Numbered from the stretch's first letter, positions 27,001 through 30,000 are shown. The stretch: 64,000 bases of DNA from Escherichia coli (GCF_011045215.1 NZ_CP049201.1), one strand, 5' to 3'. Program-made: the numbers.

Positions 27001-30000
27001 ACGTCGGTGGTGATAATTGCATTGTCATCGACACAGGCGGCAACGGCGTTGATCAGGCCGTAATGGCTTAACGGATCGCACGCTTTCGGGATTGGACACG
27101 GAAACTCACGCTGCAAATCCGCCACCAACTGGTGCCACTCTGCACGCGGTTGCGCTTCCACCAGCGGGATCAACTGCGCCAGCACGTCATCAACATCCGC
27201 CTGAATCGCCACGTGCGGCTGCTTGATTTTACCCAGCTCTGCACGGTCGATATCGACATGAATAATTTTGGCATTCGGGCAGAACTGCTCGGTTTTGCCA
27301 ATCGCCCGGTCATCAAAACGCGCACCGAGCACAATCAACAAATCCGCCTCCTGCAAAATATAGTTGGTGCTGCGCACGCCGTGCATCCCCAGCATACCCA
27401 GCGACAGCGGATGCGCTTTTGGCAGCATACCCAGCGCCATTAAGGTCATGGTAGTTGGCAGTTGCGCTTTCTCCGCCAGTTCACGCACCCGCGCAGGCGC
27501 ATTGATCACACCGCCGCCCAGATAAAGCACCGGGCGTTTGGCGGCGTTAATCATTGTAGCTGCGTCACGAATGCTTTCTTCGCTAAAGGCAGGTGCGGCG
27601 GCTTTTTCTGCCACCGCAGGCTGTGCTTCAATCTCAAAAACTGCCGTTTGCACATCCTTAGGAATGTCTATCCACACCGGGCCAGGGCGGCCTGATTGCG
27701 CAATGCGAAAGGCATCGCTCATGACCTGCGGGAGTTCTTCGATATGTCTGACCAGATAGTTGTGTTTGGTGATGGGGATAGAGATGCCGTAGGTGTCCAC
27801 TTCCTGGAAGGCGTCGGTGCCAATCATCGAGGCAGGAACCTGACCGGTGATGCAAATCAGCGGGATGGAATCCAGCCGCGCATCGGCAATGGCGGTCACC
27901 AGGTTAGTCGCACCCGGTCCGCTACAGGCCATACAGACCGCCGGTTTACCGTCGGTGCGCGCCATTCCCTGAGCGATAAACCCCGCGCCCTGTTCATGGC
28001 GAGCCAGAATATGGCGGATTTGCGTGCTTTGGCTTAAGGCATCGTAAACAGGCAGGATAGAACCGCCCGGAATGCCCGTCACAATCTTAATGCCCTGCTG
28101 TTCCAGGAAATGAACGATAAATTCTGCGCCGGTAAAGCGCTTACGCGTCGATGATGTGCCCGAACTTGCCATGCTCCAGTCCTTTTTTTCTGGGCCGACT
28201 TTCCGGGAGGTGCTTAAACGAAAAACCCCGCCCGGTTTGCGCCGGCGGGGTTTTGGAATCGTGTGTTGTTCCAGTCCCTACGGCGCATTGCCGACGACCA
28301 CCACCACACGCACGACGACCACTGCGGCGGATGGCGCAGTTGGTAGTAGTTTTGCGTTGAACATGGAAGTAGTCATTGGGGACCTTGTTGGTTTTGTGTT
28401 TAACAATATTTATACAAGCACAGCTTTACAGGGGAGACAATGGAAAATTTTTCAGCAAGGGAAAATTGAGGGGTTGATCACATTTTGCACTGAATTGCAG
28501 GTAACAAAAAACCCCGCCGGAGCGAGGTTTCGTCAGCCGCCTGCGGCTGGTAACCGCAAAGCACACTGTATTATGTCAACACTGAAAGTATACCTGTTCC
28601 GCGCAGAACGCGCAATTTCGGCACGAATTTTGACGTATTTAGTACATAGTTGAGTATCGATCACAGTTTGCGTTTTGTCTAAACATTACTGTTTATTTAT
28701 ACAGTAAACTTCTATAATATCACTGTACGCAATGTGTTATGCGGGGGCCGCATCGTTACCCGGCGCACTAAGTCCTGGCTGAAACGGGTGGTGCCGTCAG
28801 CGCCTTAACCCCGCGTGAGCACACTGTGTTATGTCAACAAGCACAACGTTTCTCCTTGAGATACCGCGTGCACAACAGCTGGCAACAGGCAGCGGAAAGG
28901 TACGTCAGCTGGCAGTGCTCCTGAACCACAGGAGACGCGTATGAGCCTGGTGGATATCGCCATTCTTATCCTCAAACTCATTGTTGCAGCACTGCAACTG
29001 CTTGATGCTGTTCTGAAATACCTGAAGTAATTCAGATTCAAGTCGCACCAAAGGGGAGCGGGTAACCGCTCCCCTTTTATATTCTGCTTGTGGGTTGGAG
29101 TTGGATGCGATGCTGACGCATCTTATCCGACTTACCATCCCTTCCGGCAACATTTATTGCCGCTTTTGTTTACATATTCTGCCGTTTTTCTTTTCGCCAT
29201 TCCTGGCACATATCTGGCTAACATTCATCAATGTGATAGATTCCTCTCCCGCATTTATGGGAATGCGTAGTGACTTATTCTAATTATTTTTATAAAAGCA
29301 TCCGTGATAATGAAAAGGCATAGAAACGTCAATTTGTTATTGATGTTGGTATTACTCGTGGCCGTCGGTCAGATGGCGCAAACCATTTATATTCCAGCTA
29401 TTGCAGATATGGCGCGCGATCTCAACGTCCGTGAAGGGGCGGTGCAGAGCGTAATGGGCGCTTATCTGCTGACTTACGGTGTCTCGCAGCTGTTTTATGG
29501 CCCGATATCCGACCGCGTGGGTCGCCGACCAGTGATCCTCGTCGGAATGTCCATTTTTATGCTGGCAACGCTGGTCGCGGTCACGACCTCCAGTTTGACG
29601 GTATTGATTGCCGCCAGCGCGATGCAGGGGATGGGCACCGGCGTTGGCGGCGTAATGGCGCGTACTTTGCCGCGTGATTTATATGAACGGACACAGTTGC
29701 GCCATGCTAACAGCCTGTTAAACATGGGGATTCTTGTCAGTCCGTTGCTCGCACCGCTAATCGGCGGTCTGCTGGATACGATGTGGAACTGGCGCGCCTG
29801 TTATCTCTTTTTGTTGGTTCTTTGTGCTGGTGTGACCTTCAGTATGGCCCGCTGGATGCCGGAAACACGTCCGGTCGATGCACCGCGCACGCGCCTGCTT
29901 ACCAGTTATAAAACGCTTTTCGGTAACGGCGGTTTTAACTGTTATTTGCTGATGCTGATTGGCGGTCTGGCCGGGATTGCCGCCTTTGAAGCCTGCTCCG

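What the first reader, a model, noticed from the sequence alone, without database searches (positions are those of the whole stretch)
28504..29030. Complete istR-1/tisB type I toxin-antitoxin locus with LexA box
TisB (29 aa) and the IstR-1 sRNA are recognisable, along with the LexA operator ctgtttatttatacag. The near-duplicate strings gcacactgtattatgtcaac (inside istR-1, about 28561) and gcacactgtgttatgtcaac (tisAB leader, about 28822) form the antisense pairing region. This is a known SOS-inducible persistence module that gene callers often miss because of its size.
Basis: partly seen in the sequence, partly recalled or inferred. Interest (0 to 1): 0.3.

Follow-up and report, generated by a model that had tools for sequence, protein, structure and literature searches.

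The report
Known E. coli tisB/istR toxin-antitoxin locus
This stretch is an intact copy of the well-studied Escherichia coli tisB/istR-1 module, in which DNA damage switches on a 29-residue membrane toxin that a small antisense RNA normally keeps silent. It is ordinary and already described.

Summary
The observation and the interpretation both hold. Window 28506-29085 is the E. coli istR/tisAB locus, in its usual place between ivbL-ilvBN and emrD.

- **istR:** Rfam RF01400 matches 28506-28635 (-) end to end (144.8 bits, E 7e-30).
- **tisB:** the ORF at 28941-29030 (+) passes both NCBIfam TisB equivalog models and Pfam PF13939.
- **LexA box:** TACTGTTTATTTATACAGTA lies at 28687-28706. It is the only such site in 64 kb, with 0 expected by chance.
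- **Pairing repeat:** a 22-nt direct repeat with one A/G difference lies at 28560-28581 and 28818-28839. Because the two genes are transcribed divergently, it gives the published 21-bp IstR-1:tisAB duplex (-36.7 kcal/mol; shuffles -15.7 +/- 2.2).

From the LexA box to the tisB start codon the sequence is identical to K-12 MG1655. The differences elsewhere in the module are few:
- one structure-preserving base in IstR-1;
- two more bases in the IstR-2-only part;
- the istR-2 -35 hexamer (TAGACA instead of TGGACA);
- TisB N2S, the published dominant E. coli allele.

Minor corrections: the second repeat starts at 28819, not about 28822; IstR-2, tisA and the tisB terminator (to about 29081) also belong to the module.

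Nothing here is new. Novelty: already known. Interest: low.

The parts
28506..28580 (-). IstR-1 antitoxin sRNA (75 nt as in the literature; the K-12 RefSeq annotation of 73 nt maps to 28506-28578)
   Evidence: Rfam RF01400 hit. Coordinates transferred from the K-12 annotation through the alignment. One difference from K-12 (G44 instead of A44), which turns a U-A stem pair into U.G (fold).
28506..28645 (-). IstR-2, the 140-nt 5'-extended form sharing the IstR-1 3' end
   Evidence: K-12 annotation 'small RNA IstR-2' mapped by alignment. Three differences from K-12. The Rfam model covers 28506-28635.
28506..28531 (-). istR intrinsic terminator (GC-rich hairpin followed by UUUUUU)
   Evidence: Terminator scan, IstR-1 MFE fold, sequence.
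28560..28581 (-). Antisense core of IstR. Nt 1-21 of IstR-1 (28580 down to 28560) pair with the tisAB leader.
   Evidence: 22-nt direct repeat D2. Duplex -36.7 kcal/mol against -15.7 +/- 2.2 for 500 dinucleotide shuffles, 0/500 as good.
28587..28615 (-). istR-1 promoter: -35 TTGCGC (28615-28610), -10 TATACT (28592-28587)
   Evidence: Hexamers read from the sequence. They are identical to those tabulated for E. coli in PMC11264685 Table 1.
28653..28681 (-). istR-2 promoter: -35 TAGACA (28681-28676), -10 GATACT (28658-28653)
   Evidence: Promoter scan. The -10 matches PMC11264685 Table 1. The -35 is TAGACA here, against TGGACA in K-12 and 94.5% of E. coli loci.
28687..28706 (.). LexA box TACTGTTTATTTATACAGTA, placed between the divergent istR-2 and tisAB promoters and overlapping the tisAB -35 region
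   Evidence: Unique in the window, 0 expected. Identical to K-12. Published heterology index for the tisB box is 1.81 (PMC5668327).
28713..28718 (+). tisAB promoter -10 TATAAT
   Evidence: Sequence. Matches PMC11264685 Table 1.
28725..29081 (+). tisAB mRNA. The start is inferred: about 7 nt after the -10, placing the published +106 RNase III site at about 28830 inside the duplex and the +85..+111 standby site at about 28809-28835.
   Evidence: Inference and the numbering in PMC6690012. The 5' UTR is identical to K-12.
28818..28839 (+). IstR-1 target and ribosome standby region in the tisAB 5' UTR, about 100 nt upstream of the tisB SD. It overlaps the tisA start codon at 28831.
   Evidence: Literature: PMC6690012.
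28831..28944 (+). tisA ORF (37 aa), part of the leader. Its product is identical to that of K-12.
   Evidence: Described as an upstream ORF in PMC11264685.
28930..28935 (+). tisB Shine-Dalgarno AGGAGA, predicted to be buried in a hairpin (GCUCCUG-AACCA-CAGGAGAC)
   Evidence: Mean P(unpaired) 0.02-0.06 over 28929-28934, five of the six SD bases, in the +1, +42 and +106 forms.
28941..29030 (+). tisB CDS, the 29-aa toxin MSLVDIAILILKLIVAALQLLDAVLKYLK (N2S relative to K-12)
   Evidence: Its nucleotide sequence is identical in 3161 of 5426 complete E. coli genomes.
29050..29081 (+). tisB intrinsic terminator (12-bp perfect stem, 4-nt loop, T-run)
   Evidence: I1. One loop-base difference from K-12.

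Best explanation
This is an intact chromosomal tisB/istR-1 type I toxin-antitoxin module of the E. coli lineage, working as described for K-12.

Without DNA damage, LexA sits on the box at 28687-28706 and represses the tisAB promoter and the divergent istR-2 promoter. IstR-1 is made constitutively from its own promoter.

The primary tisAB transcript is untranslatable. The tisB SD is locked in a hairpin, and the 5' end masks the upstream standby site. Processing to the +42 form exposes the standby region (about 28809-28839), where 30S subunits with protein S1 load before sliding to the tisB SD.

The first 21 nt of IstR-1 pair with that region. This blocks standby binding and triggers RNase III cleavage to the inert +106 form.

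After SOS induction, tisAB mRNA outnumbers IstR-1. TisB is then made, inserts into the inner membrane, collapses the proton-motive force and ATP, and promotes dormancy and persistence.

Shown here: every sequence element is present, intact, correctly arranged and near-identical to K-12. Taken from the literature on K-12: the regulation, the RNA processing and the toxin activity.
For: - Rfam istR full-length hit, 144.8 bits.
- TisB passes two NCBIfam equivalog models and Pfam PF13939.
- Colinear alignment with the annotated K-12 locus. The LexA box, tisAB -10, 5' UTR, tisA and SD are 100% identical; IstR-1 has 1 nt and tisB 1 nt changed.
- Same neighbours: ivbL/ilvBN and emrD.
- LexA 20-mer unique in the window, 0 expected by chance.
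- 22-nt repeat giving a -36.7 kcal/mol duplex against -15.7 +/- 2.2 in shuffles.
- Promoter hexamers and RBS equal to those tabulated for E. coli.
- SD predicted to be paired, P(unpaired) 0.02-0.06. In the predicted +1 fold the 5' end pairs with about 28808-28831, part of the standby region.
- Mechanism documented in PMC6690012, PMC5668327, PMC4147584 and PMC11264685.
Against: No expression or function was measured for this strain. The tisAB transcription start is inferred, not mapped. In-silico folding shows only a modest rise in accessibility of the target from the +1 to the +42 form (0.38 to 0.47), so the masking step is not demonstrated by computation. The istR-2 -35 hexamer differs from K-12 (TAGACA instead of TGGACA), and an IstR-2-specific stem carries an extra mismatch. 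The consequences of these two differences are unknown.
Confidence: 0.97

Rival explanations
1. The module is present but quantitatively different from the K-12 reference because of its alleles: TisB N2S, the istR-2 -35 TAGACA, and the U.G pair in the IstR-1 stem. These might, for example, lower the threshold for toxicity.
For: N2S is present. PMC11264685 reports that TisB-N2S is more toxic than the K-12 peptide at low inducer. The -35 variant is in the roughly 5% minority of E. coli loci.
Against: N2S is the majority E. coli allele: 85% in PMC11264685, and the identical tisB DNA is in 3161 of 5426 genomes. It gave no difference in ciprofloxacin survival. The IstR-1 change preserves pairing and matches the Rfam consensus. 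All tisB-controlling elements are identical to K-12. This is a nuance of the main explanation, not an alternative mechanism.
Confidence: 0.1
2. The locus is a decayed, non-functional remnant, as in E. coli strains where tis/istR is interrupted or deleted.
For: About 20% of complete E. coli genomes lack tisB, and some have split matches (H12). PMC11264685 reports 3% interrupted and 15% absent.
Against: Here the ORF, SD, both terminators, all three promoters, the LexA box and the pairing core are intact and contiguous. There is no insertion relative to K-12 between 28380 and 29090.
Confidence: 0.02
3. The resemblance is a chance match: a short hydrophobic ORF, a palindrome and a repeat with no function.
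For: None beyond the small size of the elements. The core CTGT-N8-ACAG alone would be expected about once in 64 kb.
Against: E 7e-30 for istR. Equivalog-level TisB scores. Expected repeat count 1e-6. 0 of 100 shuffles gave a LexA 20-mer. 98-100% identity and synteny with the characterised locus.
Confidence: 0.005

Closest known systems
tisB/istR-1 (tisAB-istR) type I toxin-antitoxin locus of Escherichia coli K-12 MG1655 (b4618/b4616)
   Same: Same genes, order, orientation and neighbours. The LexA box, tisAB promoter -10, 5' UTR, tisA, SD and the 21-nt pairing core are identical. IstR-1 matches at 74 of 75 nt and tisB at 89 of 90 nt.
   Different: TisB N2S (the dominant natural allele, PMC11264685). 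IstR-1 G44 instead of A44 (U.G instead of U-A in a stem). Two further IstR-2-only substitutions. istR-2 -35 TAGACA instead of TGGACA. One base 3 nt outside the LexA 20-mer (28684). A loop base of the tisB terminator.
tis/istR locus of E. coli strain Combat11I9 (NZ_CP021726.1) and other natural isolates
   Same: 99.0% identity over window 28400-29100. Same TisB protein (WP_000060506.1, MSLVD...). Same istR-2 -35 and IstR alleles.
   Different: A synonymous tisB change and a different, longer spacer downstream of the tisB terminator in Combat11I9.
[quoted passage not shown]
   Same: General design: a small membrane toxin, a divergent sRNA with a short block of complementarity far upstream of the toxin RBS, and an inactive primary mRNA that needs 5' processing. 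dinQ is also LexA-controlled (PMC5668327).
   Different: Different toxin families and sRNAs. The window's peptide and sRNA match TisB and IstR specifically. Per PMC5668327, dinQ, unlike tisB, does not use ribosome standby.

Membership tests
tisB/istR-1 type I toxin-antitoxin system | 29-aa hydrophobic TisB peptide matching the TisB family models | tested here: met
   ORF 28941-29030. Pfam PF13939 37.6 bits, above 25. NCBIfam NF011340 69.9 bits, above 53, and TIGR04459 61.5 bits, above 38, both covering 1-29 of 29. 28 of 29 residues identical to K-12.
tisB/istR-1 type I toxin-antitoxin system | istR sRNA gene transcribed divergently from tisAB, without overlap | tested here: met
   Rfam RF01400 at 28506-28635 on the - strand, 144.8 bits against a gathering score of 45. 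tisB is on the + strand 306 nt away from the Rfam hit. The arrangement equals the K-12 annotation.
tisB/istR-1 type I toxin-antitoxin system | About 21 nt of complementarity between the IstR-1 5' end and the tisAB 5' UTR, about 100 nt upstream of the tisB RBS (standby site) | tested here: met
   Repeat 28560-28581 / 28818-28839. 21 bp within IstR-1, including one G.U. Duplex -36.7 kcal/mol, 0 of 500 shuffles as good. The target ends 91 nt before the SD at 28930. Literature values.
tisB/istR-1 type I toxin-antitoxin system | High-affinity LexA box at the tisAB promoter, shared with istR-2 | tested here: met
   TACTGTTTATTTATACAGTA at 28687-28706, ending 6 nt before the TATAAT -10 (28713) and lying 5 nt from the istR-2 -35 (28681). 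Unique in the window with 0 expected. Identical to K-12. LexA binding itself was not tested.
tisB/istR-1 type I toxin-antitoxin system | Separate constitutive promoter for IstR-1 inside the IstR-2 transcription unit | tested here: met
   -35 TTGCGC and -10 TATACT at the expected distance from the IstR-1 5' end. Identical to the hexamers conserved in at least 99.8% of E. coli loci. Promoter activity was not tested.
tisB/istR-1 type I toxin-antitoxin system | tisB RBS sequestered in structure, so translation needs an upstream standby site | tested here: met
   Predicted P(unpaired) over 28929-28934 (five of the six SD bases) is 0.02-0.06 in the +1, +42 and +106 forms. The 5' UTR is identical to the experimentally probed K-12 RNA. 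This is an in-silico prediction only.
tisB/istR-1 type I toxin-antitoxin system | Conserved chromosomal position between ivbL-ilvBN and emrD | tested here: met
   IvbL (NF007579) and EmrD (NF008654) flank the locus. The order is the same as in K-12 and two other E. coli genomes.
tisB/istR-1 type I toxin-antitoxin system | SOS-inducible toxin expression, IstR-1-dependent RNase III cleavage, and membrane depolarisation with persister formation | not testable with these tools
   Known for K-12 from PMC6690012, PMC5668327, PMC4147584 and PMC2826370. It requires Northern blots, 5' RACE and physiology in the source strain.

The most novel reading that the evidence does not exclude
The particular allele combination of this strain might shift the induction threshold or give IstR-2 a different expression level from K-12. 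The alleles are TisB N2S, the minority istR-2 -35 TAGACA, an extra mismatch in the IstR-2-specific stem, and U.G in the IstR-1 stem. Such a shift would be a handle on the still unknown role of IstR-2.
Probability: 0.08. Interest if true: 0.15.

Novelty: already known. Interest (0 to 1): 0.06.

Why it matters
It matters only as correct annotation. The window carries a complete SOS-inducible persistence module whose sRNA genes (IstR-1 and IstR-2) are not annotated in the pipeline-annotated E. coli records examined here. The result also shows that the first-stage reader can recognise a sub-kilobase RNA-regulated module from raw sequence. No open biological question is advanced.

Tried and rejected
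(1) Extended homology or an ancient duplication between the istR gene and the tisAB leader, beyond the 22-nt core.
- RNAduplex of whole IstR-1 against the leader gave -78 kcal/mol, against -55 +/- 4.4 for shuffles, which looked suggestive.
- With the core removed, the IstR-1 body scores -42.6 against -44.9 +/- 4.2, and 349 of 500 shuffles are as good.
- Local DNA alignment outside the core scores 17, and 133 of 2000 shuffles are as good.
- Rejected: complementarity is confined to the core.

(2) Folding of the +1, +42 and +106 mRNAs to reproduce unmasking of the standby site. The SD is clearly sequestered. The change in target accessibility is modest (0.38, 0.47, 0.68). This is consistent with the model but not decisive.

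(3) I tried to anchor the tisAB +1 from primer sequences in the supplements of PMC6690012. No supplements are held, so the transcription start stays inferred.

(4) Pfam search on tisA gave no family, as expected for a leader ORF that is not translated.

(5) I looked for an exact source strain. The best complete E. coli genome is 98.9% identical over 25 kb and 99.0% over the locus, so the window is E. coli-group but matches none of the 5426 complete genomes exactly.

Full report
**What is in the sequence.**
- The ORF table shows a 29-codon ORF at 28941-29030 (+) encoding MSLVDIAILILKLIVAALQLLDAVLKYLK. Upstream of it lies a 37-codon ORF at 28831-28944.
- A scan of the whole window against Rfam gives a full-length match to istR (RF01400) at 28506-28635 on the - strand: 144.8 bits against a gathering score of 45, E 7.1e-30.
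- The peptide passes Pfam TisB_toxin and both NCBIfam TisB equivalog models over all 29 residues.
- The flanking genes are the ilvB leader peptide IvbL with ilvB on the - strand, and emrD on the + strand.

The second starts at 28819, not about 28822.
- The repeat finder extends them to a 22-nt direct repeat, 28560-28581 and 28818-28839, with a single A/G difference.
- The expected number of such repeats in this 751-bp region is about 1e-6. No further copy with up to 3 mismatches exists on either strand of the 64-kb window.
- The LexA string sits inside the 20-mer TACTGTTTATTTATACAGTA at 28687-28706. This is 18/20 to the consensus, the only hit in the window with up to 3 mismatches, and none of 100 shuffles gave any hit.

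**Comparison with the characterised locus.**
- I fetched the annotated K-12 MG1655 region and aligned it with the window.
- The annotation transfers without indels: IstR-1 at 28506-28578 (RefSeq, 73 nt; 75 nt to 28580 in the literature), IstR-2 at 28506-28645, and tisB at 28941-29030.
- Differences from K-12: IstR-1 1 nt; IstR-2 3 nt; tisB 1 nt (AAC to AGC, N2S); and two bases in the spacer between the istR-2 start and the LexA box.
- The stretch from the LexA box through the TATAAT -10, the whole 5' UTR, tisA and the SD to the tisB AUG is identical.
- The IstR-1 change turns a U-A stem pair into U.G and matches the Rfam consensus.
- The A/G difference between the two repeat copies is also present in K-12. 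It gives a G.U wobble in a 21-bp duplex between IstR-1 nt 1-21 and mRNA 28818-28838.
- That core duplex is -36.7 kcal/mol, against -15.7 +/- 2.2 for 500 dinucleotide shuffles.

**Regulatory anatomy (coordinates verified).**
- istR-1 promoter: -35 TTGCGC, -10 TATACT.
- istR-2 promoter: -35 TAGACA, -10 GATACT. The consensus scan also found this promoter.
- tisAB -10: TATAAT. tisB SD: AGGAGA.
- These equal the hexamers tabulated as 99.8-100% conserved across more than 2,000 E. coli genomes in PMC11264685. The exception is the istR-2 -35, which is TGGACA in K-12 and in 94.5% of loci.
- Intrinsic terminators close both transcription units: istR at 28506-28531 and tisB at 29050-29077 plus a T-run.
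- The LexA box lies between the two divergent SOS-controlled promoters and covers the tisAB -35 region.

**How it works.**
- This part is established knowledge for K-12. It is applied here because the controlling sequences are identical.
- LexA represses tisAB. IstR-1 is made constitutively.
- The primary (+1) mRNA is untranslatable. Removal of 41 nt gives the +42 form with an exposed single-stranded standby site (+85 to +111) about 100 nt upstream of a structured RBS.
- 30S subunits and protein S1 bind the standby site and then relocate to the RBS.
- IstR-1 pairs across the standby site, blocks 30S loading and induces RNase III cleavage to the inert +106 form (PMC6690012; PMC5668327; PMC4147584).
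- TisB depolarises the inner membrane and promotes persisters after DNA damage (same sources).
- Placing +1 at about 28725, which is 7 nt after the -10 and is an inference, puts +106 at about 28830 inside the duplex. It also puts +85..+111 at about 28809-28835, overlapping the pairing core. This is internally consistent.
- My folding of the three mRNA forms predicts the SD buried in a hairpin (P(unpaired) 0.02-0.06 over 28929-28934, five of the six SD bases). In the +1 form the 5' end pairs with about 28808-28831. Target accessibility rises only modestly on processing, so this supports but does not prove the model.

**Population context.**
- 4358 of 5426 complete E. coli genomes carry tisB. 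Of these, 3161 have exactly the window's tisB DNA sequence.
- The N2S peptide is therefore the common allele. PMC11264685 reports it as the 85% consensus, and as toxic.
- About 20% of genomes lack the module. In FDAARGOS_1304, ivbL is followed directly by ysdE-emrD, with a short unrelated spacer.
- PMC11264685 already reports 15% absent and 3% interrupted.
- RefSeq records annotate tisB throughout. The sRNA is annotated only in K-12 among the records I opened.

**Leads that went nowhere.**
- An apparent long-range complementarity of the whole of IstR-1 with the leader disappears once the core is removed.
- The tisAB start could not be anchored from supplementary primer lists.

**Verdict.**
- The feature is an intact, typical, already-known tisB/istR-1 module.
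- Novelty: already known. Interest: low.

Noticed in passing
window 22893-25939 (about 22.9-26.0 kb): A low-GC islet (32-39% GC against about 56-59% in the flanks) of about 3.3 kb lies between uhpA and ilvN. It is absent from K-12 but present as 'hypothetical proteins' in the closest E. coli genome. It holds a 435-aa ORF (24632-25939, -) plus 154-aa and 319-aa ORFs (23900-24364 and 22893-23852, -). By eye these two look like the two halves of a tandem paralogue of the 435-aa ORF. No Pfam family at E<=0.01.
   Followed up: partly
L003 (NZ_CP069990.1) 2977-3222, compared with window 28455-29140: About 20% of complete E. coli genomes (1068 of 5426) have no tisB. In FDAARGOS_1304 the whole istR-tisAB block is replaced by a short unrelated spacer between ivbL and ysdE. 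PMC11264685 already reports 15% absent.
   Followed up: partly
window 29154-29228 (-): The small ORF ysdE (24 aa) between tisB and emrD is intact but differs from K-12 YsdE at 4 of 24 residues (MNVSQICARNGEKKNGRICKQKRQ against MNVSQIYARNGELFSGRICKQKRQ). The DNA around it (29185-29210) is the most divergent part of the intergenic region.
   Followed up: partly
window 29086-29135: A REP-like palindromic sequence (GGATGCGATGCTGACGCATCTTATCC) lies just after the tisB terminator. This spacer is variable among strains: Combat11I9 carries a different, longer sequence here.
   Followed up: no
window 28222-28376 (-): ilvBN leader peptide gene ivbL (MTTSMFNAKLLPTAPSAAVVVVRVVVVVGNAP; NCBIfam NF007579), followed by its attenuator terminator hairpin (AAAACCCCGCCGGCGCAAACCGGGCGGGGTTTT). 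Its start codon (28376) lies 130 nt from the istR 3' end (28506).
   Followed up: partly
window 43315-43387 (-), 54287-54367 (+), 48768-48810 (+): Other Rfam hits above gathering score: the ROSE_2 RNA thermometer, which in the syntenic genome lies in the ibpA 5' UTR; AsdA, the antisense RNA of dnaA mRNA; and the ES036 (CssrF) sRNA.
   Followed up: no
window 16000-40999: No complete RefSeq E. coli genome is more than 98.9% identical over this 25 kb, and the best over the locus is 99.0%. The source is therefore an E. coli-group chromosome not represented exactly among the 5426 complete genomes. Shigella or an unsampled lineage was not distinguished.
   Followed up: no
L001 and L004 feature tables, compared with L002: The PGAP-annotated E. 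coli records list tisB but no istR ncRNA feature. Only the curated K-12 record annotates IstR-1 and IstR-2.
   Followed up: no
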